Numbered from the stretch's first letter, positions 29,926 through 60,503 are shown. The stretch is 64,000 nucleotides of DNA from Candidatus Hydrogenedens sp. (GCA_049968235.1 JBMFRC010000001.1:256001-320000); one strand, 5' to 3'. The notes: a model not told the origin generated them from the letters alone. Program-made: numbers and translations.

Positions 29926-30417
29926 TTAGCAAACGGGAGGGGCATGACAGAGAAAGCCTGTTAGAAAGTAAGGTTCTGTTTTAAGTCTGCGACCTCTATC
30001 CTCCGGGATAGGGGACAAACGAGTGGCTTTGTACTCTGTTTCTTTGACAAAACCTGAATAAGGCTTGAAAATGTTACCTTTGCAAAAATTGGATATTGAT
30101 TGGCTATTAACTTGAACAAAAGCGACAGGAACCTGTGACCTCTTTCCCTGCCATTTCTTTTCCAACCGATTAAATAAAATCTGTAAATCTATAACATCAA
30201 TCTTATTGTCTCCATTCTGGTCTCCTATAGAAGCAAGAGAATTTCTCTGGAGTAGGGAATGCTGAAGTAAATTCAGGTCCAGAATGTCAATTTTCCCATC
30301 AAGATTTAAATCACCCGTTTTGTAATCACAAACATTTTGATTGGATAAACAAAAGGCGAACAACACCCCGCAGGAAAGAAGTAAATAAAATATTTTCTTG
30401 CCAATTAAAAACATCAT
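29926..30417 (-). CDS. Small secreted dockerin-domain protein
   Basis: Signal peptide, then two dockerin repeats (GDLNLDGKIDILDLNLLQHSLLQ and GDQNGDNKIDVIDLQILFNRLEK), followed by an approximately 80-aa C-terminal region of unknown function. Confidence 0.5.
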   Translation of the reverse strand: MMFLIGKKIFYLLLSCGVLFAFCLSNQNVCDYKTGDLNLDGKIDILDLNLLQHSLLQRNSLASIGDQNGDNKIDVIDLQILFNRLEKKWQGKRSQVPVAFVQVNSQSISNFCKGNIFKPYSGFVKETEYKATRLSPIPEDRGRRLKTEPYFLTGFLCHAPPVC

Positions 30418-30437
30418 TTGAGTCTTTTTATATTTGA

Positions 30438-30483
30438 CATATCACTAATTTTCTTATTTACATATCACTAATTTTCTTATTTA
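30438..30483. repeat. Perfect 23-bp tandem direct repeat (x2) in the leader of the dockerin/cohesin cluster
   Basis: CATATCACTAATTTTCTTATTTA occurs at 30438-30460 and again at 30461-30483. It lies between a candidate minus-strand promoter (TATAAT as the reverse complement of 30484-30489; TTCAAA as the reverse complement of 30507-30512) and the start codon at 30417. Confidence 0.7.
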
Positions 30484-30667
30484 ATTATACACTATTTAAA
30501 TAACATTTTGAAATTTTTTTGTAACATTTTTCGTTCATATTAGTAAAATAATAGAGAATAGGTTCTTTGAAAATTGAATATTAAGGTAATGAAGCAAGAG
30601 TTTTTAATATCCCTTCCTTACCTCTCTCCTTATAAATAAATCTTCCCTTAAACTCTCTTCATATCCT

Positions 30668-30750
30668 GGGCGTCATCGTTTCCCTTCCACAATCGCCAAG
30701 TAGAATTACATGCAAAAAATGCATACTCATTAAATTACATGATGACGCCC
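30668..30750. repeat. 10-bp perfect inverted repeat (GGGCGTCATC / GATGACGCCC) enclosing direct repeats and a small palindrome
   Basis: Arms at 30668-30677 and 30741-30750. The enclosed segment has AATTACATG twice (30706-30714 and 30733-30741) and ATGCAAAAAATGCAT. Confidence 0.6.
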
Positions 30751-31066
30751 TTCCTTTTTCAACTTTCGAAACATTCCATTCGCCAACATCAATGTTTTAT
30801 ATTTCTACGGTGTCATTTATACTAATACTATATTAAACCTTTTAGGTTTCGTATTCGTATTTGTATCATTACATCAAAAGATAAAAATGTATTTTTTGTG
30901 TCATGTAGGGGGTAAATCATCATTCGCCTAAAAAAATATAATATTGGCATGAACCTGTTTTAAAAGATTAGGGAAATAAATGGTAACATTGAATCACATG
31001 GATGAATAATAACCCGTAACTTTTCCATAGTAGGGATAAAGTATTGGGGTTTATCGATTGTATTCT

Positions 31067-32794
31067 TTATTTATCTGTTTGTGGGGTATAACGGAAAGGA
31101 ATAATTGTAAATGCCATGTCGGATTGAGGAAGTAAATCCGCAAAGAAAATACCGTGTGCTTCTTTTATCAGTAATCGTCGTCCACATACATGACACATAT
31201 ATTCGGAGCCTGGTTCAATATCCTCTGCAATCTTGATATGGGTACTACAGAATGGGCAAGCAAGACTGCGACTATCTCGTTTGTGGTAATCTTGAAGTAG
31301 CGAATGAATTTTTCCCATGTTATATGCTTCTATCAGGGCATCTACCATTTCAGGGTCTAATTGGCTACTCTTTGCGGATATAATTTTTTCGATAGCAATT
31401 TCCGGGTCTAACCCTTTTCGGTAAGGACGATTGCTGGTCATGGCATCCAGCGTATCTGCAACCGCTATTAATCGTCCTTCAGGTGGAATTTCTTTACTCT
31501 TCAACCCATAAGGGTAGCCTTTCCCATCGTATCGTTCATGGTGATATAGACAGTAAGGAATAATCGGCTGGAATAATGCAATGTCTCTCAGTAAATCGGC
31601 TCCTCGTAGGGGATGTATTTTCATTTTTTCAAATTCTTCATCAGTCAATTGCCCTGGTTTTCTCAGGATAGCATCATCTACTGCAATTTTACCGACATCA
31701 TGTAGCACACCTCCCATATATACTTCTTCTATTTTTTCTTCGGACCAACCTAATACTTTCGCTATCTCTATAGCGAAATTTGTTACCCGCCATGTGTGTC
31801 CTATTGTGTAATGGTCTCGCAATTCTACTGCATTAGCAATAGTTGTCAATGTGTCTTTATAACTTTGCTTTATCATTTCGATATATTGTGCGTTACGAAG
31901 GGCTATTGATGCGGGTCCTGCTATAGCCACCAGCATCTCAAGGTCTTCTTGACTGAAAGCACGAGAGGTCCCTCGCGTATCTACATAAATTACACCTAAA
32001 CATTGATTCTGATATACAAGAGGAACACACATAGCGGAAGCAATACGATGTCGAATAATACTGCCTGAAATGTTTTTAAATCGGCTATCTTCTCCTGCGT
32101 TTTGAGTAATTAAAGCCTCTTTCTTCTCAAAAGCACGATTCACAATGGTAGCACTGATTGAAAATTCTTCCACTGCTGTTTTTGTATGGATAAATTCAGG
32201 GACAAGCCGTTTTTTTCGTTTATCCCATAATAAAATGGCTCCATTGTGAGCGGGTAGATGAGAAAAAATCTGTTCTATAATTTTTGAAAATAAGCTCTTT
32301 AAATTATTCTCACTGACGATTATTTGATTTGCGTTATAAACAGCCCGTAAACGATTTTGTATGGACTTTATTTGTTCCTGGGCGACTTTTCCCTGAGGGA
32401 CTTGAAAAAGTGTTTCATGGATGAGACTTAAATCTGCACTTTCAGTGTCTTCATCTAAGGTCGCATCAAAACGCACAGGAGATTTTTCTACATCAGAAGA
32501 AGTTTCTATAACTTCATAGCGAATTAATTGTGTTCCCACACGAAAAACATCTCCCGGTTTAAGCAGATACTCTGTTATTTTTTGATTTCCTACATAAGTT
32601 CCATTAACACTATTTAAATCTTTTAGTAAAGGGCCATCCTCCGTAGGCTCTACTACCGCATGCTTTCTTGACACTTTTGGGTCATCAAGAGTAATAACAT
32701 TTTCCTGTCCTCTACCGATGGTTAAAACCTCATCCGCAGGGAAGGAAACACCTTTTTTTGTTCCCGTTAGGACTACAATATTTGCATCTTTCAT
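31067..32794 (-). CDS. FHA-GAF-HD-GYP c-di-GMP phosphodiesterase with C-terminal zinc-ribbon
   Basis: N-terminal FHA (GRGQENVITLDDPKVSRKHAVV...NGTYVGNQKI), a central GAF-like region, an HD-GYP domain (HD...HHERYDGKGYPYGL) and a C-terminal CPFC...CHVCG motif. Confidence 0.75.
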   Translation of the reverse strand: MKDANIVVLTGTKKGVSFPADEVLTIGRGQENVITLDDPKVSRKHAVVEPTEDGPLLKDLNSVNGTYVGNQKITEYLLKPGDVFRVGTQLIRYEVIETSSDVEKSPVRFDATLDEDTESADLSLIHETLFQVPQGKVAQEQIKSIQNRLRAVYNANQIIVSENNLKSLFSKIIEQIFSHLPAHNGAILLWDKRKKRLVPEFIHTKTAVEEFSISATIVNRAFEKKEALITQNAGEDSRFKNISGSIIRHRIASAMCVPLVYQNQCLGVIYVDTRGTSRAFSQEDLEMLVAIAGPASIALRNAQYIEMIKQSYKDTLTTIANAVELRDHYTIGHTWRVTNFAIEIAKVLGWSEEKIEEVYMGGVLHDVGKIAVDDAILRKPGQLTDEEFEKMKIHPLRGADLLRDIALFQPIIPYCLYHHERYDGKGYPYGLKSKEIPPEGRLIAVADTLDAMTSNRPYRKGLDPEIAIEKIISAKSSQLDPEMVDALIEAYNMGKIHSLLQDYHKRDSRSLACPFCSTHIKIAEDIEPGSEYMCHVCGRRLLIKEAHGIFFADLLPQSDMAFTIIPFRYTPQTDK

Positions 32795-32970
32795 AAACTA
32801 TCTTTCCTTACATTCAATATCATTTTACCTTATAACTCAGGTAAAAAGGAAAGAATTTATTTTGTTTTCTACATAATTTTGTAGAAATAGTAACAACAAA
32901 TATAGAAAAAAAAATTCAAATTTTGGGAAGAAAAATTATAAAATAACTCGTCTTTAGTTTATAAAAAAAA

Positions 32971-33047
32971 TGGCGCGCCCGGCGGGATTTGAACCCACGG
33001 CCCCTTGCTCCGGAGGCAAGTGCTCTATCCAACTGAGCTACAGGCGC
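32971..33047 (-). tRNA. tRNA-Arg (anticodon CCG)
   Basis: The reverse complement reads GCGCCTGTAGCTCAGTTGGATAGAGCACTTGCCTCCGGAGCAAGGGGCCGTGGGTTCAAATCCCGCCGGGCGCGCCA. It has a 7-bp acceptor stem, GTTCAAATCC T-loop, anticodon loop CTCCGGA and an encoded CCA. Confidence 0.85.
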
Positions 33048-33123
33048 GTTGACAACGGTACTCCTATTAATAAGAATATCACATTTGCAGAATCTAATTC
33101 TAAAAAAGGATAGATTTGAGGAA

Positions 33124-34350
33124 CTAATCTTTGTTCCCAAATTCATATTTTATGCCTGCAGATAAACAATGTTCCCAGGGTTCAATATCCCTCTTTTGAT
33201 GTTCACTGTCATATTCATTGGAAAGGGTAAGTTCTACACTCATGTTTTTAGAAACGGGGGTTGATAAATTTGTCAAAGAATTAATACGGTAATAGTCAAT
33301 GCGTTCCAAACTGGGCTCAAATGTTAGGTCATGAGAAAGTTCAGAACTCATAATTTTCCGTGTATATTTACTTCCAATTTTCAAACTCGTGAAATCATTG
33401 GTTGTATTTTCTGCATTTAATGGATTTAAAACTTTTATACTTCCACCAAGAATTCCGCCTAAGTTTGCAATATCTGCTGGATTTTGAATTAATCTTTGAG
33501 AAGAAGTAATTATCTGATTTAGCCCATCCTGAATTTGTTCCTGCTTAACTTCACTTTTCTGAAATGGGACATAGGGGAGCCATTCTTCATGGGTTAACAT
33601 GAGAGCTCCTTCCATAGACCAGGTCTGACGCGGTTGGGATATAATCTCATAACCTGTTCCTCCTCCAATCTGTCCCCTCAATCCTAATTTTCTACCTTCA
33701 TCTCGTTCTGCACCCATATCTGTGTAAATATACCACTTTTCTTCTGGATAGTATTGGTAGCGAAATTTTCCGTCATATCTCCGTGTATTAATTGCATTTT
33801 CAACCTCGCCATAAGCCCCTGATAATTTCATTTCTATGAGGTCCTTTTTCCTTTTCCCGGATACGGTTATACTGCTTTCAAAATTTGTGGTATCTGTTGT
33901 TCCCTTTTGAAGTGATGCAAGGACTTTACCACTTCCCGACCATTTTCTCTTATCTTTTTGTTCTTGCGTTTCTTGTGTTGCTGAATTTTCGGGTACAGGT
34001 GTGATTTTTTGTATATTTTCCCAGGGAATAGACTGTTTCTTTCCTTTTTCTATAATAAACAGCATATCACTTGTAAAATTCATTTTACCCTGAATTACTT
34101 CTCCATTCAGGAGAGATACTTCCCAGGGACCCTCTTGCTCAATTTTCTTTATATCTACTCGCTTTATATTAATAGTTCCCAGAATATCATTATTTAATGT
34201 TAAATGGTCATTTGTTATCTTAAGGATTTGCCCAGTAAGGGTATCACCATTTGTTAATTCAATATGGTCTGAGTAACCAAATGAAACTTTTAATATAGAA
34301 AAAAGCATAATAATAAAAAATATAAATAAACTATGTTTTTTTGATTTCAT
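33124..34350 (-). CDS. DUF481-like putative outer-membrane beta-barrel protein (YdiY-like)
   Basis: Signal peptide, then N-terminal repeats of LTNGDTLTGQI / LLNGEVIQGKM type followed by a long beta-strand-rich region, which matches the DUF481 family architecture. Confidence 0.45.
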   Translation of the reverse strand: MKSKKHSLFIFFIIMLFSILKVSFGYSDHIELTNGDTLTGQILKITNDHLTLNNDILGTINIKRVDIKKIEQEGPWEVSLLNGEVIQGKMNFTSDMLFIIEKGKKQSIPWENIQKITPVPENSATQETQEQKDKRKWSGSGKVLASLQKGTTDTTNFESSITVSGKRKKDLIEMKLSGAYGEVENAINTRRYDGKFRYQYYPEEKWYIYTDMGAERDEGRKLGLRGQIGGGTGYEIISQPRQTWSMEGALMLTHEEWLPYVPFQKSEVKQEQIQDGLNQIITSSQRLIQNPADIANLGGILGGSIKVLNPLNAENTTNDFTSLKIGSKYTRKIMSSELSHDLTFEPSLERIDYYRINSLTNLSTPVSKNMSVELTLSNEYDSEHQKRDIEPWEHCLSAGIKYEFGNKD

Positions 34351-34552
34351 ATATTAATCCCTAAAAAGTATAATCATTTACAATATCGTAATTATTAGAC
34401 GAATGAAGAGGATTTATGTATTCAATTTTATGTGGTAAAATTTAATATTTAAATGTAATAATAGAAACGCAGAAAAAATATAATAGAAAACAATTATGAA
34501 TGTATGATATAAAATTATGATATATTCTTGAATTTCTCTTTGAGGATTTTTT

Positions 34553-35668
34553 ATGCAAATGTTATATGACACATGGCTTTTATGGTCTATCACTTTTTTA
34601 TTTCTTGCTTTACTTGTAGTTTCTTTTATCATTGGTATTTATAAGAAGAAGAAAGAAGAAAAAAAACGCATTTTAAGAGACTGGGAACGGGTCCGCTATA
34701 TTTTGAAGGAGAAGGAATTAAATGAGAAGGAAATAAAACTTTTAGAAGAAATCATACATAAATATGATGCACAAAATCCGCTGGGAGTGACAACTTTTCG
34801 TCAGCATTTTGTCCGCTGTGTATATAAATATATAATAAATGCACGAAAATATCTCGACTTTGAGGAATTGGATGAAGTCGGGGAGATACTTCGTGAAATT
34901 AGTATTCGTTTAGGACACGATTATATTCCTTATGGACAACGTATATACACCACCGTAGAACTTTATCAGAATCAACCATTATGGATGTCGCCTCAGGGAG
35001 AAAATCCATCTTTATGGAGAAAAGGGAATGTTGTTGATATAAATGGTGCTTTTTTTCGAGTTGCTCCATATACACCGCAGGATAGGCTTCCTATAAATTT
35101 AGGGCAATATATATCATTCAAGATGTGGCGGGAAGATGATGCACGGTATCAATTCTCTACTGTGTTACGAAAGATAGAATTAGACCCTGAAGTATATGTA
35201 TTTGACCATGCTTTTTCTTTAGAACGTTTCCAGTCTCGTGCCTATTTTCGTGTTCGATTGGACAAACCTATAGAGGCAGATGTTGTTACGATAGACAAAA
35301 AATATGATTTAAATCAGATTAGTGCGGAAGATGTCTCCTGTAAAATTATTTTCTCAACACGGGCTCGTATTGTTAATCTAAGTGCTGGAGGTTCTGCTAT
35401 ACTGATTGATAGAGATATTGAAGAAGGATTATTTCTTAGAATACTTCTTGATATGGAAGATGATAAGGAACCAAAGTTTATTACTTTGTATATGCGTATT
35501 ATTAATAAAGTAAATGTGGCATTGGGAAGATATATATATCGTGGAGCCTTCATGGGATTAACAGATGAAAATCGTGACCGTCTCGCTAAATATGTATTCC
35601 GCCAACAACCTCCTGTATCCTCTGCACTTCGTGAACAACAGAAAAAAGATGAAGAGAAGAAAATATAA
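34553..35668 (+). CDS. PilZ-domain (c-di-GMP-binding) membrane-anchored protein
   Basis: N-terminal TM helix and coiled-coil. The C-terminal region has PilZ signatures RAYFR (RxxxR) and NLSAGGSAIL (D/NxSxxG). Confidence 0.6.
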   Translation: MQMLYDTWLLWSITFLFLALLVVSFIIGIYKKKKEEKKRILRDWERVRYILKEKELNEKEIKLLEEIIHKYDAQNPLGVTTFRQHFVRCVYKYIINARKYLDFEELDEVGEILREISIRLGHDYIPYGQRIYTTVELYQNQPLWMSPQGENPSLWRKGNVVDINGAFFRVAPYTPQDRLPINLGQYISFKMWREDDARYQFSTVLRKIELDPEVYVFDHAFSLERFQSRAYFRVRLDKPIEADVVTIDKKYDLNQISAEDVSCKIIFSTRARIVNLSAGGSAILIDRDIEEGLFLRILLDMEDDKEPKFITLYMRIINKVNVALGRYIYRGAFMGLTDENRDRLAKYVFRQQPPVSSALREQQKKDEEKKI

Positions 35669-35695
35669 AGTAATACAAGGAAGGCATATTCAGGA

Positions 35696-36445
35696 ATGCA
35701 ATGGGAGCGCATAAAAAACAATCAAAGTAAAATAATTCCTTTGTCCGGAATTTATATTTTTGTTCATACTGCAACATTTTTTGTATATGAACTTTTGTCA
35801 TTAAATTTAGAACTTTCATCGGGGAATTTTCCGAATGATATCTTATTATCCCTTGTAGATGTCGTTAGAGAACTGGTGCTTTGTGCCATTTTAGGTGGGT
35901 TACAATCTATCGTTTTTGCCCGGCTTGGTGTAATCTTAGAATTTCCTATCTGGCGTTGTAAAGATGATAAAGAAGCACTAAGTCGTTTCTTCCTGCTCTG
36001 GTTTGGAATTAATGCAGGACTAATAACCATCAATCGTGTAGCCAATATATTAGCAGAAAAAGGAATTTCAGACCTTGCTTTTTTATTGGGAGGAGTAGGA
36101 CTTATTGCAAATATTATTTATTTACCCCTTACTGTTTGCTGGATGTATTCTGGCGAAAAACTCTCTGAGGATGACTCTTTTCTTCGTGTGTTTCGTCCTA
36201 TCACACGACAATGGGGAGAAACATTAGGAATGTGGGCGATTCTCAGCATTTCCCTTTTTGTTGCTCTGTTTATATTAGGACTGCCCCTATTCCAGGAATC
36301 CTCCATTTTTACAGTTGTCATAAAAACAATTATAATTATACCTCTGGCAGGAATAGACATTTTTGTATTTTGCTGGACATGGCTGTTATGTATTCAGTGT
36401 AGAATTCAAGGATTGGATGAGGATGTATCATTAGATGATTTTTAA
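35696..36445 (+). CDS. Hypothetical polytopic membrane protein
   Basis: 249 aa with about 6 predicted hydrophobic helices and no recognisable motif. It lies between the PilZ gene and the sugar-nucleotidyltransferase gene. Confidence 0.35.
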   Translation: MQWERIKNNQSKIIPLSGIYIFVHTATFFVYELLSLNLELSSGNFPNDILLSLVDVVRELVLCAILGGLQSIVFARLGVILEFPIWRCKDDKEALSRFFLLWFGINAGLITINRVANILAEKGISDLAFLLGGVGLIANIIYLPLTVCWMYSGEKLSEDDSFLRVFRPITRQWGETLGMWAILSISLFVALFILGLPLFQESSIFTVVIKTIIIIPLAGIDIFVFCWTWLLCIQCRIQGLDEDVSLDDF

Positions 36446-36474
36446 CAGTACTAGAAAAGGACTAAGTTATATCC

Positions 36475-37686
36475 ATGAAAGCCATTATTCTTTGTGCGGG
36501 TAAAAGTACACGGACTTATCCGCTTACTGTAACCCGTCCAAAACCACTGCTCCCTCTATTAAATCGACCCATTATTGAATTTCAATTGGAAGGACTTTAT
36601 TCTTTTGTTGACGCGTTTATTCTTGTTGTTGGGTATCGTCAGGAAATGATACAGCAACAATTGGGTGATAACTGGAAAGGAAAAAAGATTACTTATGTTA
36701 TTCAGGAAGAACAGCGAGGAACTGGACACGCTGTATTGATGTGTGAAAAAGAAGTTCAGGGTCCGTTTATCGCGATGAATGGTGATGACCTTTTTGACCC
36801 GAATGACCTAAAAAATCTTGCCCGGCAAAGCAGGCCTTCTGCATTAGTAAAAGAAGTTTCCAATCCCAAAGATTACGGAATATATGAATTGGAGAGCAAC
36901 AATAAAGTAAAAAAACTCGTAGAAAAACCGAAGGTTATATTTTCTAACATTGCAAATATTGGTGCCTATCTATTTACACAGGACATTTTTCCTATCCTGC
37001 ATAGAACACCTTTATCTGAACGCGGAGAAATTGAAATTACTTCTGCAATACAAATAATGGCAGAACAAAAGGGATTCTGGGTAGTTCCCGCGGAGGGATA
37101 CTGGCTACCTATTGGCTACCCATGGGACTTACTTCGGGCAAACGCGTTTCTGTTAGATGGTATGAAAGACGCTACGGTCCTGGGAACAGTCATGTCCGGA
37201 GCATGGATTGAAGGAAATGTTTTTATTGACGAAGGCACAATTGTCCGTCCAGGTAGTTTTATTGAAGGTCCTGCTTACATTGGGAAAAACTGCACAATAG
37301 GACCTAACTGCTGGATAAGACCTTATACGACTATCGGGGATAACTGCCGTGTCGGTCAGGCTTCTGAAATAAAAAATTCTATTTTATTTAACCATGCTTA
37401 CGCACCTCATCAAAACTATGTAGGTGATAGCATTTTAGGTGAAGGAGTCAATCTGGGATGTGGAACGGTAACTGCAAATGTTCGACATGATGGACAAGCT
37501 CCTAAATCCGTTGTAAATGGTGTCCTGATTGAAACAGGATTAAAAAAGTTAGGGGCTGTCTTAGGCGATAATGTCCACACAGGAATCTTAACCGCAATTT
37601 ATCCCGGTCGTAAAATGTGGCCCGGCACATTTACCCGACCTGCAGAGGTAGTTGAACGAGACATCATCGGTGAAGAAAATGGCTGA
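36475..37686 (+). CDS. Sugar-phosphate nucleotidyltransferase with C-terminal left-handed beta-helix (hexapeptide) domain
   Basis: N-terminal ILCAGKSTRTYPLTVTRPKPLLPL (NTP_transferase G-x-G-T-R motif). The C-terminus has hexapeptide repeats (IGKNCTIGPNCWI.., IGDNCRVG..). Confidence 0.65.
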   Translation: MKAIILCAGKSTRTYPLTVTRPKPLLPLLNRPIIEFQLEGLYSFVDAFILVVGYRQEMIQQQLGDNWKGKKITYVIQEEQRGTGHAVLMCEKEVQGPFIAMNGDDLFDPNDLKNLARQSRPSALVKEVSNPKDYGIYELESNNKVKKLVEKPKVIFSNIANIGAYLFTQDIFPILHRTPLSERGEIEITSAIQIMAEQKGFWVVPAEGYWLPIGYPWDLLRANAFLLDGMKDATVLGTVMSGAWIEGNVFIDEGTIVRPGSFIEGPAYIGKNCTIGPNCWIRPYTTIGDNCRVGQASEIKNSILFNHAYAPHQNYVGDSILGEGVNLGCGTVTANVRHDGQAPKSVVNGVLIETGLKKLGAVLGDNVHTGILTAIYPGRKMWPGTFTRPAEVVERDIIGEENG

Positions 37687-38782
37687 TAATGAGCAAAAAA
37701 AGATGAAAATAGTATTTTTTGGAAATGCCACTGAAAAAAATGCTGCAATCCGGTATCGCGTGCAAAAATTTGCAGATATGTTTGAGGTGGAAGGATATCC
37801 GTGTATTGTTTGTTTACCTTCTTCTGTGGATTTCTACTTAAAATATTTTGAGAACCAACCAAAGTACAAGAAGGCAATTTATTGGCTTTGTGTATGGCTT
37901 CGTCGCTGGTTTCAACTACGACACATTTTTAATGCGGATGTAATATTTTTAAGAGGTCCTATATTTAAATACGGACCACCAATCTTTGAATATATAATTC
38001 ACTTGTTTAATAAAAATATGGTCTTTGATATTGATGACGCTGTCTGGGAAAAACCGGCTTTCGTAAAAAATTATTCTCTTCGTTTTATTGATTTTGACTG
38101 GGCTAAGAAAATGTGTAAAATCTGTGCGGGCGCAGTCGTCGGCAATCGTTATCTGGAAGAACATGTGAAACAATGGGGAGCAAAGAAAATTGCTATTGTT
38201 CCGACATGTATTGATATAGAGAAACACCAGCAGAAAAAAGAATACCCAAAACATAACAATCCAGTAATTATAGGTTGGACAGGAACTCATACCAATTTAG
38301 GTTACCTGGACATACTCAAAGAACCATTAAAGGAATTATCTAAAAAATATCCGATACAACTGTTTATTGCTTCTAATGGTTTGAATTACAATATGGAAGG
38401 AGTAAATGTCGTATTTGAAAATTGGAAACTCGAAAAGGAATTTGAATACTTGCAAAGGCCTGATATTGGTTTGATGCCACTTATTGACACACCACGAGCA
38501 CGAGGAAAATGTGCTTTTAAGGCATTAGAATACATGGGTGTTGGGACGCCGGTTGTCATTTCACCTGTTGGTATGAATGCGGAGGTGATAGAAAATGGTG
38601 TTCATGGTTTCCTGGCACAGACTCCTGAAGAGTGGTATGATCGATTAGAAAGATTAATAACGAACCCGGATTTACGAGAGCAAATGGGACGGAAAGCACG
38701 GCAACGCATTGTAGATTTATATTCATTTGAAGCGAACTATCCCCAACTGAAAGAATTCCTATTGGATATTGCAAAAGGATAA
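37679..38782 (+). CDS. Glycosyltransferase family 1 (GT-B, GT4-like)
   Basis: C-terminal E-x7-E-like region EYMGVGTPVVISPVGMNAEVIENGVHGFL. The start is placed at ATGGCTGA, which overlaps the upstream stop by 8 nt (MADNEQ...); the ORF track starts at 37652. Confidence 0.65.
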   Translation: MADNEQKKMKIVFFGNATEKNAAIRYRVQKFADMFEVEGYPCIVCLPSSVDFYLKYFENQPKYKKAIYWLCVWLRRWFQLRHIFNADVIFLRGPIFKYGPPIFEYIIHLFNKNMVFDIDDAVWEKPAFVKNYSLRFIDFDWAKKMCKICAGAVVGNRYLEEHVKQWGAKKIAIVPTCIDIEKHQQKKEYPKHNNPVIIGWTGTHTNLGYLDILKEPLKELSKKYPIQLFIASNGLNYNMEGVNVVFENWKLEKEFEYLQRPDIGLMPLIDTPRARGKCAFKALEYMGVGTPVVISPVGMNAEVIENGVHGFLAQTPEEWYDRLERLITNPDLREQMGRKARQRIVDLYSFEANYPQLKEFLLDIAKG

Positions 38783-38787
38783 ATCAA

Positions 38788-40101
38788 ATGAAAGAAACAA
38801 ATAATCCAGATGTGGCTCTGGCGTGGGAGTGGATAGAAGAACTGGATGCATGGTTGGGAAAAAATGGATTGTGTGGTTATGACCGTTTCAATGTAAAAGA
38901 CCATCCTTTATGTCGCTCCTTACAAACGATGCCTTTGCTTCGCAAATTGAGTCCCGGATATTCTGAATTATTTCCAAAATTTACACGATGGCTTTTACGT
39001 GTAAAAAAAACAGAGAATCCTAAAGCCCATGCGTTAATGGCAACCGGACATTTGCGATTGCTTTCAATTGAACCTGAAAAGGAACATTTAGAAAGGGCAG
39101 AAAGACATCTACTATGGCTCCGTTCTCAGAGGGTACCGGGTCTTGATGGCTGGGCTTGGGGATATCCTTTCGCTTACACAGGCAAAGGGGTTCATGTCCC
39201 TGCGAATACCCCCGTTAGCGTTGTTACTGCTATTGCAGGTCAAGCATTTTTATCCGCATATCAGATGACGCAGGAAGAACAATATCTCTCTGCCATACTT
39301 GAAATTGCAGAATTTTTTATTAAGGAACTCCCTCACTGGAAACTGAAAAACGGGGGACTGTGCTTCGGTTATGCTCTTAAAGGAGACCCACGAAAAGTTC
39401 ATAATGCAAATCTACTTGTAGCAGAATATCTTTATCATGTCTCCCATATCACAGGTGAGAAAAAATACCAAGAAATAGCAGAGCCTGCATTAGAGTTTTC
39501 TCTCAACGCACAAAACGAAAATGGCTCATGGTATTATGGATACTGGGAAGAGGACGACCCCTCTGAAAAAGAATTACATAAAATTATAGATAACCATCAT
39601 ACAGGGTTTGTTTTAAGGTCTTTATACGGAATTTACAAGTTAGAACCCAATGAAGTGCTTAAAGAAAAAATACTGAAAGGTTTCCAATATTATGCTACTT
39701 TATTTGAAGAATGCGGACAACCCTATTTTGCAGAAAACAAGAAATGGCCTGTGGATATACATGCGTGTGCAGAGGGAATTTTATGTCCCTCAATTTTAGC
39801 GGAAGTTATCCCTGCGGCACATGTTCTTGCAGTGTTCGTTCTACGCTGGGCATGGTTCCACATGCGAAACTTAAAAACGGGGGAACTCTATTATCGGCGT
39901 TACCCGTTCTTTATCTCTAAAATCACCTTTCCGAGGTGGGGTGTGGCGTTGATGTTCCGGGCTATCGCAGAATATCTTTCCCGCTTCTATGAAGTCAAAG
40001 AACGGGTAGAGAGATTAAAAATGCAAGCCATACGATGGATAGAACCCATTCCTAACATAGGAAATACATCAAATAGTAATACAATAGAAGAAACAAAATA
40101 A
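38788..40101 (+). CDS. Hypothetical protein in glycan cluster (possibly alpha/alpha-barrel enzyme)
   Basis: 437 aa with no signal peptide. Trp/aromatic-rich repeats suggest an (alpha/alpha)6-type fold, but no motif is securely recognised. Confidence 0.3.
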   Translation: MKETNNPDVALAWEWIEELDAWLGKNGLCGYDRFNVKDHPLCRSLQTMPLLRKLSPGYSELFPKFTRWLLRVKKTENPKAHALMATGHLRLLSIEPEKEHLERAERHLLWLRSQRVPGLDGWAWGYPFAYTGKGVHVPANTPVSVVTAIAGQAFLSAYQMTQEEQYLSAILEIAEFFIKELPHWKLKNGGLCFGYALKGDPRKVHNANLLVAEYLYHVSHITGEKKYQEIAEPALEFSLNAQNENGSWYYGYWEEDDPSEKELHKIIDNHHTGFVLRSLYGIYKLEPNEVLKEKILKGFQYYATLFEECGQPYFAENKKWPVDIHACAEGILCPSILAEVIPAAHVLAVFVLRWAWFHMRNLKTGELYYRRYPFFISKITFPRWGVALMFRAIAEYLSRFYEVKERVERLKMQAIRWIEPIPNIGNTSNSNTIEETK

Positions 40102-40102
40102 T

Positions 40103-42244
40103 TTGGAGATTTTCATGCTTCAGGGAATTATTAAAAAAGGTAAAGCATTGACTGTTAATGTTCCTGCTCCACAGGTAGGTAAAGGGATGTCGCTTATAAA
40201 AGTTATTTTTAGTTGCATTTCAGCAGTAACAGAATTGAGCGGACTTGCCCGTAGTAAAAAGCCATTAATTCAACGGGCATGGGAACAACCCGATAAGGTA
40301 AAAAAAGTGATGGATATATTGCGGGATGAAGGTTTTACAGTCGTCTATGCAAAGGTTAAGAATAAATTAGAATCCGGTACACCTATCGGTTATTCGGTTA
40401 GTGGTATTGTTATAGCAGTTGGTGAAGAGATTAGCCGATTTCAACCGGGAGATAAAGTTTCTGCATCAGGTGTAGGATATGCTCATCACGCAGAGTTCGT
40501 TTCTGTTCCAGAAAATCTTGTAGTTAAGTTTCCGGAGGAAGTATCTTTTGAAGAGGCATCTACTGTGGCATTGGGGGGAATTGCTATACAGAGTATACGA
40601 CGGGCAAACCTTCAACTGGGTGAATTTGTTGTGGTTTTTGGGCAGGAATTTTAGGCTTGCTAACAACACAAGTGCTCATCGCTTCGGGAATAAGAACAGC
40701 AGTAATTGATATTGACTCACATCGTTTAGACATTGCTAAAGAATTAGGTACGGAATTGGTTATTAATCCGCATGATGAAAATCCTATCGATAAAGTAATT
40801 AACTGGAGTGATGGCTATGGAGCCGATGCAGTTATTTTCACGGCGTCCACACAGCAAAACAAACCTCTTTCTCAATGTTTCCGTATGACTCGAAAGAAAG
40901 GAAAGGTTGTTTTGGTAGGTGTGTCGGGTCTTGAAATTAAACGCGAGGATATTTATTCCAAAGAATTGGATTTTCTTATTTCCACATCTTATGGACCCGG
41001 CAGATACGATACACAATATGAAGAAAAAGGGGTTGATTACCCGTATGCCTATGTTCGCTGGACAGAAAACAGGAACATGAAAGAATACTTGAGGTTAATC
41101 CACAGTAAGCATATAAAACTTGATAGATTAATAGAAAAAACATACCCCATTGAACAAATTGCAGATGCGTTTGATTGCCTATCTTCACAAACACCGCGTC
41201 CGTTAATTGTGCTTCTCCAATATGACACACCTGAGACAGAACCATTCCTTGCGGATATATCACAACAACTAATTCATGTGAATACGAACTATACACGAAA
41301 ATCTGTTATTAATGTTGCAATTATCGGCACAGGGGGATTTGCAACAAACATGCATTTGCCAAACCTTGCAAGGCTTAAAGATAAATATTCCATTTATGCC
41401 ACTATGAACCGTTCCGCACAACAGGCAAAATTCGTAGCAGAACAATATCAAGCCAAATACACCACGACCAACCTGGATGAAATATTGAGTGATAAACAGG
41501 TGGACCTCGTTTTTATAACCACAAGACATGATTCCCATGCGGAATATTGTTTGAAAGCATTACATGCAGGGAAACATGTTTTTGTGGAAAAACCTTTAGC
41601 CACATCTCAGGAAGAGTTGAATAAGATAAAAGATTTCTACACACAGGGGAGTGAACTTAAACCCATATTACTCGTCGGCTTTAACCGTCGGTTCAGTAGA
41701 TACCTTACAGAAAAAAAAACATACAGACAGGCGAATTAACCCTTTACTTATTCATTATCGAATGAATGCAGGACTTTTACCTTCGGACCATTGGGTTTTT
41801 GAAACAGGGGGTCGGATTATTGGCGAAGCATGTCATATTATAGACACCGTTTCCTTTCTCACAAAAAGCCCCCTGGAAACTATATCCGTAGAATCTCTAA
41901 CACCAACGACAGACCGATATAGACCTACGGATAACAAAATTGTGCTATTAAAATATAAGGACGGCTCTGTTGCTTGTTTTGAGTATTTCTCTGTAGGAAG
42001 TACAGAATTTGCTAAAGAATATATGGAGGTTCATTTTGACGGGAAAACCCTTGTAATGGACGATTATAAATCTCTAAAAGGTTATGGTCTGAAAATCAAT
42101 GAAATACAAACTCGAACCAGCCAGAAAGGCTACTTTGAAGAAATTCTGGCTCTTTATGATTCCATAACGGGTAAAAACCCAGATTTGCCTATCCCACTCC
42201 CCGAATTGTTCCAGACTACAGAAGCAACATTTATAATAAAGTAA
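40103..42244 (+). pseudogene. Bi-domain oxidoreductase (zinc-type alcohol dehydrogenase-like N-domain + Gfo/Idh/MocA domain) interrupted by two frameshifts
   Basis: Three consecutive ORFs (40103-40654, 40657-41739, 41651-42244) read as one protein if one G is added in GGG at 40640-40642 and one base is changed in the A9 run at 41711-41719. The first correction restores the Rossmann motif VVVFGAGILGLLT; the second bridges the Gfo/Idh/MocA N-terminal (VAIIGTGGFATNMHLPNL...EKPLA) and C-terminal parts. Confidence 0.55.
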
Positions 42245-42313
42245 AACTGCATTTTATTCTAATTGCTAACTTAATAACTCCATTCTACATTTCAATTCTA
42301 TAACCATAAATGT

Positions 42314-43921
42314 TTAATCTTTAGTGGGTTTCTCTACTTTGTAAATAGAATTCCATAATAACGAATGATGTTTCCATAAAGTATCTTTAGAACTATACAC
42401 AGGGACACCATTTTCAATCCGAAACAATTCGGGATTTAACAATACAGGATTTACAGATATTTTCGTAAGCACAATATCGGAAAGTATGTATTGAGAACCA
42501 ACAGAACTCGATAAATCAAATTTAAATATTCGTGAAAAGAAAGTATCTTTATAAATATGTCGATATTGGAAAGAATTTGATACGACAATATAATCGATAT
42601 CATATTGTTTAATAAATTCCTCTTCATTTTGTTCTTTTAGCAAACATGGGAAAATTTCCCCTCCCACAATACCGTCCACACTTATTAATTGGGCATTCGT
42701 ATTGAACTGAAACTGTATTTCATAAATTAATATTTTGCTTTTTTCATGGATACCCAATCTCCGAATTTCCTCTGCAAAATCATTTCCTAAGATACGGTCA
42801 AAACTGTACTTATAGTTTTCGGGTTTATTTAATTGCAAATGTTGATATATAGCAAATACAAACAGGGGCAACATAATAATAATTGCTATCTTTGAATATT
42901 TTGAAAAATGTCTTCCTATCTCCATTGCAATCCATGGAAACAATACAGGGACCAATGTTAGCAAATATCTGTTTGAGTAAAGCATAGGAGGAAAAAGAAG
43001 GTAAATAAATACCAGAAGTACACTACTAAAAAACATAATATTTTGTATTTTATCATTGGAAATAAGTTTAAAAATGTCTAGAAAGACCAGAAGAATAAAT
43101 AGAGGTAACACAAAAAGTAACGCGGGAGAAAACCGATATAAATCACCAATGGAAATTACTATTTTCTCTACATAGGAAATATCTTTATTTTCTAATGAAC
43201 GGATAAAACGCCCTAAAATAGAAGAAGGTGAAAGGATACCTGTCATCACGAATAAATATCCATAAACGACTACCGGGCTTGATAAACCTAAAATAAGATA
43301 TTTCCCAAATATTTTTCTATTCTCTGAAATTAATAAAAGTGCAGTAACAAAAAGCAGAAAATATTCTGGACGAACAAGAATAGAACATCCTGCGAAAAAG
43401 ATACCTGCTTTGTTCCATTTTATTTTCAATAAGAATAATGCAAATGTGGGGATAAAAATTATTAATGCAGTTTCGTATAATTGTGTAGAAGATATAAAGA
43501 GAGAATAAACAAACATATAGGAAAGAATTAAGAATAAAACAATAAATATTTTTTCCTTTTTTTGCATCGGGAATTGCTCATTGCCAATGCATATATAGAC
43601 ATTCAGGAGTACTCCTCCAAGGATAAAAATCTTATTTACATAAGTAGCAAATACCAGCCATTTTTCAAACCCCAAAAAATAATAAGGAATGGAATTTAAC
43701 ATGACCCAGAGAGGAGAGGTCGCTCCATGCTTTACTTCATAACCAAAGACAAAAGGTTTGGGGAAAAAATCACGAATAAAAGTAAAATATATAGAAGCAT
43801 CGCCATGAATTCGTGTTTTGTGAAGATAAAGAATAAAAAGAAGAAAGATAACAGGAAGAGTTAGCGATATACAATATATGACTTTTCCCTTTTGAAAATG
43901 TTGCGGATATAAATGATACAT
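42314..43921 (-). CDS. Polytopic membrane protein, putative GT-C-fold glycosyltransferase
   Basis: 535 aa. About 11 hydrophobic helices occupy the N-terminal two-thirds, followed by a soluble C-terminal domain of roughly 160 aa. The architecture resembles ArnT/PMT-like GT-C enzymes, but no secure motif is seen. Confidence 0.35.
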   Translation of the reverse strand: MYHLYPQHFQKGKVIYCISLTLPVIFLLFILYLHKTRIHGDASIYFTFIRDFFPKPFVFGYEVKHGATSPLWVMLNSIPYYFLGFEKWLVFATYVNKIFILGGVLLNVYICIGNEQFPMQKKEKIFIVLFLILSYMFVYSLFISSTQLYETALIIFIPTFALFLLKIKWNKAGIFFAGCSILVRPEYFLLFVTALLLISENRKIFGKYLILGLSSPVVVYGYLFVMTGILSPSSILGRFIRSLENKDISYVEKIVISIGDLYRFSPALLFVLPLFILLVFLDIFKLISNDKIQNIMFFSSVLLVFIYLLFPPMLYSNRYLLTLVPVLFPWIAMEIGRHFSKYSKIAIIIMLPLFVFAIYQHLQLNKPENYKYSFDRILGNDFAEEIRRLGIHEKSKILIYEIQFQFNTNAQLISVDGIVGGEIFPCLLKEQNEEEFIKQYDIDYIVVSNSFQYRHIYKDTFFSRIFKFDLSSSVGSQYILSDIVLTKISVNPVLLNPELFRIENGVPVYSSKDTLWKHHSLLWNSIYKVEKPTKD

Positions 43922-58616: not shown

Positions 58617-60503
58617 TTATTCAAAATTCATGATGTAACTGTAAACTCCTTCATGGAGTTGTGATTCTACTTTCAGACCACTCCGTTCAAATACCGCCTG
58701 CATAGGTTTGTTCTCACGCAGAACTTCGGCTGTAAACCCTGCAATACCATTACGACGGGCTATATTTATCAAATGACGGAAAAGGAAAGAACCAATTCCC
58801 CGGTTTTGCCATTCATCCTGAACAACGAACGCTACCTCTGCACGGTTCGTTTTCGGATTTAAGTAATAACCACCCATTGCAACAATTTCTTCTCCATCTG
58901 GATCGGGAACTGTGGCTACAATGGATACTTCATTACGATGGTCAATATACACAAATTCCTGAACCTGTTTGCGAGGGACCCATTTCATACGGCTCATAAA
59001 ACGTTTATATAGGGATTCCTGCGATAGAGAATAAAACAGTTCACGTATACGCGGTTCATCGGTTGGGTGTATAGCACGAATTGTTACGGAAGTTCCATCA
59101 TCACAAATATAAGTAGTGCGGATGTCCCTCGGACCTATTACAATCTTATTCTTAAAGTCTGTAAGTTCAGGACGAATATATTTTGATTCGATTGCTTCCA
59201 TTAATAACTTTTCGCGGAATTTTGGATGTGCAATACTAATAAGAGCCAGAGCGCGTTCCTGAACATTTTTCCCATGTAAATAGGCAACACCATATTCGGT
59301 GACAACATAATGGACATCGCCTCGGGTCGTTACAACTCCGGCACCTTCACTCAAATGACAAACAATTCGCGATACCTCTCCATTATGTGCAGTAGATGGT
59401 AAAGCAATTATGGTTTTTCCTCCATTAGAGCGAGCCGCTCCACGATTAAAATCAACCTGCCCACCAATACCGGAGTAGAATTTAGATCCCATGGAATCGG
59501 CACATACCTGCCCTGTTAAATCTACTTCTAAAGCAACATTAATAGCCACCATCTTGTTTTGTTGCGAGATAACAAACGGGTCGTTTACATATTCTGTCGG
59601 ATAGAAAGAAAATTGGGGATTGTTATGCAAATACTCATAAAGTTTTTTGGTTCCCATAGCAAAACTTGCAACGATTTTACCGCGGTCCAATGTTTTCCGT
59701 TTCCCGGTAATAATCCCTTTTTCTATAGGCTCTATAATCGAATCGGTTAACATCTCGGTGTGTATTCCCAAATCCTTTTTATCTTCTAAGAATTGAATTA
59801 CAGCCTGGGGAATACGGCCTATCCCCAATTCCAGAGTGGCACCGTCCTCTATCAAACCTGCAATGTATTGCCCTATCTCACGGGTAACATCATCCGGCTC
59901 GGCTATGGGAAATTCAATTAGCGGTTCATCCACAGGAACGAGATAATCAATATCATGTACATGGATAAAACAATCGCCCATTGTTCTGGGCATCTGCGGA
60001 TTTACCTCTGCAATAACCAATCGTGAATTTTCCGCTGCACTTTTCACGATATCCACAGAAATTCCTAAACTGCACATACCATCTTCATCCGGAGGAGAGA
60101 CCTGAATAAGTGCTGCATCCAGGGGTAACTGTCCTGTTTTAAATAAACGAGGAATATCGGATAAAAATATGGGGGTATAACCGCCTAACCCTTCCTGAAT
60201 AATATGACGGACATTCTGAGCAATGAAAAAACTATTTACCGTAAAATGATTAATCAAGTCTTTCTGGGCGTAGGGAGCATCCCCTAAAGTTAGCAAGTGC
60301 ACAATTTCTATATCTGCCAGGTCTGCATGCCTTGCTACCAATGCATCTACTAACCGTTGAGGTTGGGCACAACCCGTCCCAATAAAAACGCGGAAACCCG
60401 GTTGAATGCGAATTACCGCTTCCTGAGAGCTTACTACCATATCGGAATATTTTTCTTCCCAATTCGGGTCAAAATTCATTTCTTTTTTGGATATATCACT
60501 CAT
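58617..60503 (-). CDS. Acetyl-CoA hydrolase/transferase-family domain fused to C-terminal GNAT acetyltransferase domain
   Basis: The N-terminal ~430 aa have CoA-transferase family patterns (GGYTPIFLSDIP..., EVDLTGQV, YSGIGGQVDFNRGA..GGKTIIALPST). The C-terminal ~170 aa carry a GNAT motif (EVAFVVQDEWQNRGIGSFLF...). The start overlaps the upstream ACD gene by 8 nt. Confidence 0.6.
   Translation of the reverse strand: MSDISKKEMNFDPNWEEKYSDMVVSSQEAVIRIQPGFRVFIGTGCAQPQRLVDALVARHADLADIEIVHLLTLGDAPYAQKDLINHFTVNSFFIAQNVRHIIQEGLGGYTPIFLSDIPRLFKTGQLPLDAALIQVSPPDEDGMCSLGISVDIVKSAAENSRLVIAEVNPQMPRTMGDCFIHVHDIDYLVPVDEPLIEFPIAEPDDVTREIGQYIAGLIEDGATLELGIGRIPQAVIQFLEDKKDLGIHTEMLTDSIIEPIEKGIITGKRKTLDRGKIVASFAMGTKKLYEYLHNNPQFSFYPTEYVNDPFVISQQNKMVAINVALEVDLTGQVCADSMGSKFYSGIGGQVDFNRGAARSNGGKTIIALPSTAHNGEVSRIVCHLSEGAGVVTTRGDVHYVVTEYGVAYLHGKNVQERALALISIAHPKFREKLLMEAIESKYIRPELTDFKNKIVIGPRDIRTTYICDDGTSVTIRAIHPTDEPRIRELFYSLSQESLYKRFMSRMKWVPRKQVQEFVYIDHRNEVSIVATVPDPDGEEIVAMGGYYLNPKTNRAEVAFVVQDEWQNRGIGSFLFRHLINIARRNGIAGFTAEVLRENKPMQAVFERSGLKVESQLHEGVYSYIMNFE

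What the first reader, a model, noticed from the sequence alone, without database searches (positions are those of the whole stretch)
40103..42244. Bi-domain oxidoreductase gene broken by two frameshifts at homopolymer runs (G3 and A9)
Three adjacent ORFs reconstitute a single ~720-aa protein of the type found in polysaccharide biosynthesis clusters: a medium-chain dehydrogenase-like N-domain fused to a Gfo/Idh/MocA NAD-binding and C-terminal domain. Adding one G to the G-run at 40640-42 recreates the Rossmann motif VVVFGAGILG, and a +/-1 change in the A9 run at 41711-41719 joins the Gfo/Idh/MocA halves. Every other large ORF in the window is intact (SecA at 915 aa, the surface protein at 1822 aa). 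This is therefore either genuine pseudogenisation or slipped-strand phase variation of a surface-glycan gene, or two homopolymer sequencing errors confined to one locus.
Basis: seen in the sequence. Interest (0 to 1): 0.5.

Follow-up and report, generated by a model that had tools for sequence, protein, structure and literature searches.

The report
Ordinary frameshifted pseudogene of an oxidoreductase
A sugar-pathway oxidoreductase gene in an uncultured Hydrogenedens-like bacterium has been genuinely inactivated by two small deletions that three separate assemblies share, so it is an ordinary recent pseudogene and not a sequencing error or a phase-variation switch.

Summary
ORFs 40103-40654, 40657-41739 and 41651-42244 are colinear pieces of one ~710-aa "bi-domain oxidoreductase" (an MDR-like module fused to a Gfo/Idh/MocA module). 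Thousands of intact homologues exist; the closest is 91% identical (Ca. Hydrogenedens sp.).

Two other public MAG contigs carry exactly the same two lesions. With the window they form three distinct haplotypes (1 and 12 SNPs, no indels over 3.7 and 13.3 kb). Random sequencing error and rapid ON/OFF switching are therefore very unlikely.

Comparison with 19 orthologues changes the proposed mechanism:
- Site 1 is most simply the loss of the A in ancestral GGA GCA. No orthologue has a G4 run there.
- Site 2 is a 2-bp deletion from GAA ATA AAA AAA. This deletion created the A9 run.
- Only A8 or A11, together with +1 nt at site 1, restores the frame. A10 does not.

Each lesion cuts one enzymatic module. 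The window lineage has about 3.5 times more amino-acid changes than its sister lineage at similar synonymous counts (35:59 vs 10:72, p=1e-4), including G38V at a 100%-conserved column.

All other genes in the window (about 45 ORFs) are unbroken, and 138 homopolymer runs inside ORFs cause no frameshift. Verdict: a real, fixed, recent pseudogene. Low interest.

The parts
40115..40654 (+). Pseudogene fragment 1: N-terminal 179 codons (GroES-like ADH_N part of the MDR-like module), from ATG 40115 to TAG 40652-40654. An upstream in-frame TTG at 40103 starts the mechanical ORF.
   Evidence: ORF list. Pfam ADH_N. Aligns to residues 1-176 of the ~710-aa homologues. The same 179-aa product is called in L001 and L005.
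40640..40642 (+). Lesion 1: a 1-bp deletion inside the GxGxxG NAD-binding loop. Ancestral TTT GGA GCA GGA became TTT GG- GCA GGA. The G3 run is probably a product of the deletion, not its cause.
   Evidence: The frame switches between VVFG (frame 2) and AGILG (frame 1). In 19 of 19 orthologues the Gly codon is GGA or GGT, never GGG.
40643..41719 (+). Pseudogene fragment 2 (mechanical ORF 40657-41739): the rest of the MDR Rossmann domain, the linker and the Gfo/Idh/MocA NAD-binding domain, read in frame 1.
   Evidence: Pfam ADH_zinc_N and GFO_IDH_MocA. Alignment A1. tblastn segment 40636-41736.
41711..41719 (+). Lesion 2: an A9 run created by a 2-bp deletion (TA or AT) from ancestral GAA ATA AAA AAA CAT. 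The nearly invariant Ile of YLTEIKKHTD is lost.
   Evidence: Nucleotide comparison with 19 orthologues. Protein alignment column 535. Only A8 or A11 restores the frame. It is the only homopolymer of 9 or more bases inside an ORF in the window.
41720..42244 (+). Pseudogene fragment 3 (mechanical ORF 41651-42244): the Gfo/Idh/MocA C-terminal domain, back in frame 2. Stop codon at 42242-42244.
   Evidence: Pfam GFO_IDH_MocA_C3. Alignment A1. The same 197-aa ORF is called in the L005/L156 contig.
40861..40861 (+). A SNP private to the window haplotype: AAA (Lys) here, GAA (Glu) in L001 and L005. The position (E250) is nearly invariant in the family. This is consistent with drift after inactivation.
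   Evidence: Conservation list.
38788..40101 (+). Intact upstream neighbour: a 437-aa protein of unknown function. It is the conserved gene partner of the oxidoreductase.
   Evidence: It lies next to the oxidoreductase in 44 of 154 fetched loci, including loci with only 24-31% identity. Only a faint Pec_lyase hit and no PDB sequence match.
36475..38782 (+). Intact upstream genes of the same co-directional cluster: a bifunctional sugar-1-phosphate nucleotidylyltransferase/acetyltransferase (36475-37686) and a GT4 glycosyltransferase (37679-38782).
   Evidence: NCBIfam TIGR03992 at 465 bits (cut-off 292); Pfam Glyco_trans_1_4. The same gene order occurs in relatives L002, L006, L076-L079.

Best explanation
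This is a genuine, recently formed pseudogene that is fixed in the sampled population. The gene encoded a ~710-aa bi-domain oxidoreductase: a threonine-dehydrogenase-like MDR module fused to a Gfo/Idh/MocA module. It sits in a nucleotide-sugar/glycosyltransferase cluster of a Candidatus Hydrogenedens-like bacterium.

Two independent small deletions inactivated it:
- A 1-bp deletion inside the first GxGxxG NAD-binding loop ends translation at codon 179.
- A 2-bp deletion just after the GFNRRF motif separates the Gfo/Idh/MocA Rossmann domain from its C-terminal domain.

Each lesion disables one of the two enzymatic modules, and either alone would prevent synthesis of the fused enzyme. The A9 run is a by-product of the second deletion.

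Shown here: the lesions, their presence in three haplotypes, the ancestral states, and an excess of amino-acid changes on this lineage.
Inferred: that the enzyme activity is lost, and that the loss is neutral or tolerated, perhaps as part of a remodelling of the glycan cluster.
For: 1. The fragments are colinear with intact ~710-aa homologues; the frame switches fall within GG|GCA and within the A-run.
2. Two other assemblies carry identical lesions. L001 has 1 SNP in 3,663 bp. L005 has 12 SNPs in 13,349 bp. Neither has an indel, and they differ from each other at 38180 and 38953. Together with the window this gives three haplotypes.
3. The ancestral states rule out simple homopolymer miscounts. 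Site 1 was GGA GCA. Site 2 was A3-T-A7 and lost 2 bp including the T.
4. Selection is relaxed on the window branch:
   - 26 non-synonymous to 71 synonymous changes, against 6:80 on the sister branch (omega about 0.11 vs 0.02; Fisher p=4e-4).
   - With two outgroups, 35 amino-acid changes to 59 synonymous, against 10:72 (p=1.3e-4). One of the 35 (I534K) comes from how I padded the gap at site 2.
   - The flanking M14 peptidase is symmetric (20:58 vs 19:49, p=0.85).
   - G38V sits at a column that is 100% conserved in 119 homologues.
   - The window-private E250K SNP is at a nearly invariant residue.
5. The rest of the window is clean. About 45 ORFs are unbroken, and every adjacent same-strand pair I tested is two complete, different genes. 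All 138 homopolymers (A/T>=6 or G/C>=5) inside ORFs, apart from this A9, cause no frame break. They include a G6 run 65 nt upstream of site 1.
6. All close orthologues (70-91% identical) are uninterrupted.
Against: - No raw reads were available, so the sequencing platforms of the three assemblies are unknown. A shared systematic basecalling error cannot be formally excluded.
- L001 and L005 have neighbouring accession prefixes. They are probably from the same study and may come from related samples.
- Overall divergence of the broken gene from its orthologues (91% aa) is no greater than that of its intact neighbours (90-94%), and omega on the window branch is still far below 1. Inactivation is therefore recent, and the evidence for relaxed selection is statistical, not overwhelming.
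- The neighbouring intact GT4 gene shows the same branch asymmetry. Part of the signal could therefore be a regional or lineage effect and not a consequence of the frameshifts.
Confidence: 0.86

Rival explanations
1. Assembly or sequencing artefact: the gene is intact in the organism, and two indel errors were introduced at low-complexity sites.
For: - Both breaks now look like homopolymer contexts (T5G3 and A9).
- No reads could be inspected.
- The two supporting MAGs may share a platform and a study with the window.
Against: - Three assemblies with different SNP haplotypes agree at both sites and show no indel difference over 13.3 kb.
- Relative to the orthologues, the errors would have to delete a non-repeat A, and a TA that includes a T. 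That is not the usual +/-1 homopolymer miscount.
- 138 other homopolymers inside ORFs cause no frameshift, among them A8, T8 and G6 runs.
- The excess of amino-acid substitutions on this lineage is independent of the indels.
Confidence: 0.05
2. Slipped-strand phase variation: the A9 run (and the G-run) are contingency tracts that switch a surface-glycan gene ON and OFF.
For: A9 is long enough to be mutable by replication slippage (established knowledge of homopolymer contingency loci in Neisseria, Campylobacter and Haemophilus). The gene sits in a glycan cluster.
Against: - All three haplotypes have the same tract lengths.
- G3 is too short to slip at a useful rate, and no orthologue has a G4 run there.
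- With site 1 unrepaired, no A-tract length from A7 to A12 yields a full-length protein.
- The A9 run is not conserved. Orthologues have A3-T-A7 or interrupted versions of it.
- An A8 'ON' state would lack the nearly invariant Ile.
Confidence: 0.04
3. Recoding: a full-length protein is still made, by -1 ribosomal frameshifting at site 1 and by transcriptional slippage (or +1/-2 frameshifting) on the A9 run.
For: - Runs of nine A are known to provoke RNA-polymerase slippage (Thermus dnaX; poly(A) rescue in Buchnera; from my own knowledge, not tested here). A8 or A11 transcripts would join fragments 2 and 3.
- A Gly-tRNA re-pairing one base back from GGG would read VVFG-AGILG.
Against: - No orthologue has either frameshift, so there is no conservation of a recoding signal.
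- Site 1 has no X XXY YYZ heptamer in the zero frame. A Phe-tRNA slip on U UUU would give VVFWAGILG and destroy the GxGxxG motif (reading).
- The yield would be the product of two inefficient events.
- Relaxed selection on the coding sequence argues that the product is no longer needed.
Confidence: 0.03
4. Gene fission: the three ORFs now act as separate subunits that reassemble into a working enzyme.
For: - ORF2 has a TTG start 2 nt after the ORF1 stop, with an AGGA 8 nt upstream.
- Gene callers annotate three ORFs in L005.
Against: - Break 1 lies inside the glycine-rich NAD-binding loop. ORF1 ends ...VVFGQEF and ORF2 starts after the motif, so GAGILG exists in neither piece.
- ORF3 overlaps ORF2 by 89 nt. 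Its first 23 codons are out-of-frame sequence with no homology.
- None of the 7,943 homologues listed appears as such a split among the top hits.
Confidence: 0.02

Closest known systems
'Bi-domain-containing oxidoreductase' family (NCBI protein name; MDR/threonine-dehydrogenase-like module fused to a Gfo/Idh/MocA module, ~710 aa)
   Same: After repair, the sequence aligns over its full length: 91% identity to a Ca. Hydrogenedens sp. protein and 58-62% to Sulfurovum, Campylobacter and Thermodesulfovibrio members. It has the same Pfam domains and the same neighbours in relatives (nucleotidyltransferase, GT4 glycosyltransferase, 437-aa protein).
   Different: The window copy is interrupted twice and cannot encode the fused enzyme. 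The family has no NCBIfam equivalog model passing its cut-off and no solved fusion structure; only single-module relatives such as inositol 2-dehydrogenase and alcohol or threonine dehydrogenases are in the PDB. I found no functional literature. The biochemical activity that was lost is therefore unknown.
Bacterial frameshift pseudogenes (recent, lineage-specific gene inactivation)
   Same: Small out-of-frame deletions relative to intact orthologues, fixed in the sampled population, with a rise in dN/dS on the affected branch and hits at conserved residues.
   Different: Nothing unusual. The only notable points are that the lesions sum to -3 nt, which is not compensatory because stops intervene at once, and that each lesion hits one module.
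Homopolymer contingency loci (phase-variable glycan genes of Campylobacter, Neisseria, Haemophilus)
   Same: A poly-A tract of 9 inside a glycan-cluster gene.
   Different: There is no length polymorphism among three haplotypes, the tract is not conserved in orthologues, a second break outside any repeat blocks every ON state, and an A8 state would not restore the native sequence.

Membership tests
Bi-domain oxidoreductase family (MDR-like + Gfo/Idh/MocA fusion) | Colinear full-length homology to ~710-aa members | tested here: met
   The repaired 709-aa product covers 100% of the best hits: 1,462 bits and 91% identity to P0001, and 7,943 hits at E<=1e-10.
Bi-domain oxidoreductase family (MDR-like + Gfo/Idh/MocA fusion) | Domain order ADH_N, ADH_zinc_N, GFO_IDH_MocA, GFO_IDH_MocA_C | tested here: met
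   Pfam hits on the three fragments, in that order.
Bi-domain oxidoreductase family (MDR-like + Gfo/Idh/MocA fusion) | Single uninterrupted reading frame (a functional member) | tested here: not met
   Two frame breaks; the first stop is at codon 180. It is a pseudogene derived from the family, not a functional member.
Pseudogene (genuine inactivation) | Disruption relative to intact orthologues | tested here: met
   All orthologues from 70 to 91% identity are uninterrupted. The window lacks 1 nt and 2 nt relative to them.
Pseudogene (genuine inactivation) | The lesion is reproducible in independent genomes of the lineage | tested here: met
   L001 and L005 carry both lesions. Three SNP haplotypes, no indels. 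Caveat: raw reads and sequencing platforms were not seen.
Pseudogene (genuine inactivation) | Relaxed purifying selection on the affected lineage | tested here: met
   26 N:71 S vs 6:80 (p=4e-4), and 35:59 vs 10:72 (p=1.3e-4). G38V at a 100%-conserved column. These are parsimony counts, not a likelihood branch test.
Phase-variable contingency locus | Tract-length polymorphism between genomes or reads | tested here: not met
   G3 and A9 in all three haplotypes. Read-level heterogeneity could not be tested.
Phase-variable contingency locus | Some tract length restores the full ORF | tested here: not met
   With site 1 as found, A7 to A12 all stop at codon 180.
Phase-variable contingency locus | The repeat tract is conserved in related strains or species | tested here: not met
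   Orthologues have GGA/GGT GCx at site 1 and A3-T-A7 (or interrupted versions) at site 2.
Programmed frameshift / transcriptional slippage gene | The frameshift and its signal are conserved among orthologues | tested here: not met
   None of 19 orthologous loci, and none of the aligned proteins, needs a frameshift.
Programmed frameshift / transcriptional slippage gene | Slippery motif at the shift site | tested here: inconclusive
   Site 2 has an A9 run, which is slippage-prone in principle. Site 1 has no X XXY YYZ heptamer in frame (reading). No expression data.
Sequencing/assembly artefact | Not reproducible across assemblies, and other homopolymer frameshifts nearby | tested here: not met
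   The lesions are reproduced in three assemblies. No other broken gene in the 64 kb, although 138 homopolymers lie inside ORFs.

The most novel reading that the evidence does not exclude
The locus may be a natural, population-fixed knock-out of a very widespread but uncharacterised enzyme family (at least 7,900 homologues). The enzyme forms a conserved gene pair with an unknown 437-aa protein, found next to it in 44 of 154 loci across distant phyla. The knock-out would have been caught early in the decay or re-tooling of a surface-glycan cluster, because the neighbouring GT4 gene shows the same excess of amino-acid changes. In addition, the newly created A9 run could let RNA-polymerase slippage produce transcripts that join fragments 2 and 3. 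A residual Gfo/Idh/MocA-only product started at the ORF2 TTG might then persist.
Probability: 0.07. Interest if true: 0.3.

Novelty: already known. Interest (0 to 1): 0.1.

Why it matters
It matters little beyond annotation. The three ORFs should be annotated as one frameshifted pseudogene, not as three proteins, in this genome and in GCA_049969095.1 and GCA_049971155.1.

The case also shows that a break which looks like a homopolymer error can be a real deletion that created the homopolymer. Comparing the site with orthologues, and with sibling assemblies, can settle this without raw reads.

A smaller point: this lineage appears to be losing one step of a conserved but uncharacterised glycan-modification module, the bi-domain oxidoreductase and its 437-aa partner.

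Tried and rejected
- **Length variants in public metagenomes.** I searched JGI/ENA metagenome contigs for length variants of the A-tract, using lineage-specific flanks (GATACCTTACAGN{6,14}CATACAGACAGGCG). There were no matches.
- **Protein-guided scans.** Scans of metagenome contigs and of the GTDB species representatives returned only relatives at 91% identity or less, all intact. They returned no further member of the window lineage and no intact allele of it.
- **Exact-protein look-ups.** The window's ORF2 found nothing, because of its private E250K SNP. The look-ups of the downstream 535-aa gene also found nothing (in one search I had set the coordinates wrongly). The ORF3 look-up found only the L005 contig again.
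- **Literature.** Searches for the family name and for the MAG accessions gave nothing useful.
- **Family and structure libraries.** NCBIfam and the PDB gave only single-module relatives.
- **Signals around the locus.** The promoter/terminator scan was at background level. Rfam found only one tRNA in the window.
- **Compensating frameshifts.** The lesions sum to -3 nt, so I considered a compensating pair. I rejected this because the ORF1 frame hits a stop 4 codons after site 1.
- **Gene fission and programmed recoding.** Both were rejected; see the rival explanations.

Full report
**Observation.** The region contains three ORFs on the + strand:
- 40103-40654, frame 2
- 40657-41739, frame 1
- 41651-42244, frame 2

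Pfam assigns ADH_N to the first, ADH_zinc_N plus GFO_IDH_MocA to the second, and GFO_IDH_MocA_C3 to the third. Inserting one base at the G-run 40640-40642 and removing one A from the A9 run 41711-41719 gives a continuous 709-aa product containing VVVFGAGILG. That product matches 7,943 database proteins at E<=1e-10. The best hits are almost all about 710 aa long and cover 100% of the query. The closest is 91% identical and is named 'bi-domain-containing oxidoreductase' from a Candidatus Hydrogenedens MAG. In the alignment, the frame switches fall between VVFG and AGILG, and inside the K-K of YLTE(I)KKHTD. The window holds no second copy. Two details need correction: the protein is ~710 aa, not ~720, and at the A-run only -1 (A8) or +2 (A11) restores the frame, whereas +1 does not.

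**Is it a sequencing artefact?** Exact-protein look-ups of the neighbouring 437-aa gene and of the 179-aa first fragment found two NCBI MAG contigs from different assemblies:
- L001: GCA_049969095.1, 3,663 bp
- L005: GCA_049971155.1, a 16.5-kb contig

L001 differs from the window by 1 SNP over 3,663 bp. L005 differs by 12 SNPs over 13,349 bp. Neither alignment has a single gap, and both contigs read GGTTTTTGGGCAGG and CAGAAAAAAAAACATAC exactly as the window does. L001 and L005 also differ from each other, at 38180 and 38953. Three haplotypes therefore share both lesions.

Elsewhere in the 64 kb, about 45 ORFs tile the sequence without a break. Every adjacent same-strand ORF pair I tested proved to be two complete, different genes, for example AXE1 and MntP, S6 and SSB, L9 and DnaB, and NUDIX and AIM24. 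Inside ORFs there are 138 further homopolymers (A/T>=6 or G/C>=5), and none of them breaks a frame. They include A8 and T8 runs, and a G6 run only 65 nt upstream of site 1. An error process that spared all of these yet hit a G3 run is implausible.

**What the lesions really were.** I extracted both sites from 19 orthologous loci at 52-91% protein identity.
- Site 1: all 19 read GGA or GGT followed by GCx, never GGG. The window's TTTGG-GCAGG is therefore most simply the loss of the non-repeat A of GGA GCA.
- Site 2: 17 of the 19 read GAR ATA AAA AAR CAT. The Ca. Hydrogenedens terephthalaticus sequence, ACAGAAATAAAAAAACATACAGAC, matches the window's flanks exactly. The window's ACAGAAAAAAAAACATACAGAC lacks two bases, including the T.

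So the A9 run did not exist before the mutation. It was made by a TA/AT deletion that fused A3 and A7. The two deletions sum to -3 nt, which is why fragments 1 and 3 share a frame. This is not compensation, because the ORF1 frame stops four codons after site 1.

Functionally, site 1 lies inside the glycine-rich NAD-binding loop of the MDR-like module. Site 2 lies just after the invariant GFNRRF motif, between the Gfo/Idh/MocA Rossmann domain and its C-terminal domain. Each module is therefore cut once.

**Evidence of decay.** I used the sister lineage L002 and the outgroup L006 (with L079 as a second outgroup in the second count), and counted changes by parsimony.

| Gene | Window branch | L002 branch | Fisher p |
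|---|---|---|---|
| Oxidoreductase (non-syn : syn) | 26:71 | 6:80 | 4e-4 |
| Oxidoreductase (aa : syn, two outgroups) | 35:59 | 10:72 | 1.3e-4 |
| M14 peptidase | 20:58 | 19:49 | 0.85 |
| Nucleotidyltransferase | 10:46 | 6:44 | 0.43 |
| GT4 glycosyltransferase | 19:25 | 7:53 | 4e-4 |
| 437-aa gene | 18:38 | 11:49 | 0.09 |
| 535-aa membrane gene | 45:33 | 27:37 | 0.09 |

- One of the 35 oxidoreductase changes (I534K) is an artefact of my gap padding at site 2.
- Three of the 19 GT4 changes lie upstream of the likely true start.
- The M14 peptidase and the nucleotidyltransferase are symmetric between the two branches.
- The GT4 asymmetry, and the weaker trends in the 437-aa and 535-aa genes, suggest that the whole glycan module may be relaxing or re-tooling. 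This is an inference.

Omega on the window branch is about 0.11, against about 0.02 on the sister branch. That is recent, yet older than the 0.09% diversity among the three haplotypes.

The window protein carries G38V at a column that is 100% conserved among 119 homologues, whereas its closest relatives have 0-1 such deviations. The only SNP inside the gene among the three haplotypes is E250K, at a nearly invariant residue.

**Rival readings.**
- Phase variation fails on three counts. There is no length polymorphism among the haplotypes. The tracts are not conserved in orthologues. With site 1 as found, no A-tract length from A7 to A12 gives a full-length product.
- Programmed recoding fails because no orthologue needs a frameshift and site 1 has no slippery heptamer. 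RNA-polymerase slippage on the A9 run is conceivable, but it could only join fragments 2 and 3.
- Gene fission fails because the GAGILG motif is encoded in neither fragment.

**Context and comparison.** The window comes from a Hydrogenedens-like bacterium. The best species-representative match is Ca. Hydrogenedens terephthalaticus at 89%. The gene order is: sugar-1-phosphate nucleotidylyltransferase/acetyltransferase (TIGR03992, above its cut-off), GT4 glycosyltransferase, 437-aa unknown protein, oxidoreductase. A 535-aa membrane protein, weakly similar to putative glycosyltransferases of the LA_3751 family, converges on the cluster from the other strand. Relatives show the same order.

The 437-aa protein lies beside the oxidoreductase in 44 of 154 fetched loci, including loci with only 24-31% identity. 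It is therefore a conserved functional partner.

The oxidoreductase family itself has no NCBIfam model above cut-off and no solved fusion structure, and I found no functional literature. The chemistry that was lost cannot be named beyond 'NAD(P)-dependent sugar or polyol oxidoreduction, probably on a nucleotide-sugar or glycan intermediate'. That description is inferred from the domain families and the gene context.

**Verdict.** This is a real, recent pseudogene, fixed in the sampled population and made by two small deletions. It is ordinary biology. My confidence in that reading is about 0.86. The main remaining doubt is that I could not inspect raw reads.

Noticed in passing
window 38788-40101 (+); related loci L035, L039, L040, L047, L048, L118-L124 and others: The 437-aa protein upstream of the broken gene has only a faint Pec_lyase hit and no PDB sequence match. 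Homologues nevertheless lie directly next to the bi-domain oxidoreductase in 44 of 154 fetched loci, including loci only 24-31% identical. This is a conserved, uncharacterised gene pair.
   Followed up: partly
window 37679-38782 (+): The intact GT4 glycosyltransferase shows the same excess of amino-acid changes on the window lineage as the pseudogene (19 aa:25 syn vs 7:53 on the sister branch, p=4e-4). Relaxation or re-tooling may therefore extend beyond the broken gene. Three of the 19 changes may lie upstream of the true start.
   Followed up: partly
window 10429-11172, with A10 at 11021-11030 and A11 at 11127-11137: The two longest homopolymers in the window lie in a 744-nt non-coding gap just upstream of a prepilin-type (N_methyl + DUF1559) gene at 11173-12207. 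Long promoter-proximal poly-A tracts like these are better candidates for tract-length effects than the A9 in the finding.
   Followed up: no
window 32906-33047: tRNA-Arg(CCG) at 32971-33047 (-) is the only RNA gene detected in the window. It is flanked by an A9 run (32906-32914) and an A8 run (32963-32970) in the intergenic space.
   Followed up: no
window 14459-17191 (+): A 910-aa protein combines DEAD/Helicase_C, an archaeal-type helicase domain 4 and a C-terminal Trans_reg_C (OmpR-type DNA-binding) domain. This is an uncommon fusion.
   Followed up: no
window 17301-22769 (-) and 22770-23602: An intact 1822-aa protein with multiple Ig-like and bacterial-surface Ig-like domains is preceded by an 833-nt non-coding stretch that contains two T8 runs (22922-22929 and 23055-23062).
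   Followed up: no
window 30115-43463 vs L005: Of the 12 SNPs separating the window from the sibling MAG contig, 7 are non-synonymous, 2 synonymous and 3 intergenic. The high non-synonymous share is typical of very recent within-population polymorphism.
   Followed up: partly
window 58617-62604 (-): Two adjacent genes: an NDP-forming acyl-CoA synthetase-like protein (CoA_binding, Succ_CoA_lig, ATP-grasp_5; 702 aa), and an acetyl-CoA hydrolase/transferase fused to a GNAT acetyltransferase domain (628 aa). The pair resembles a protein-acetylation module.
   Followed up: no
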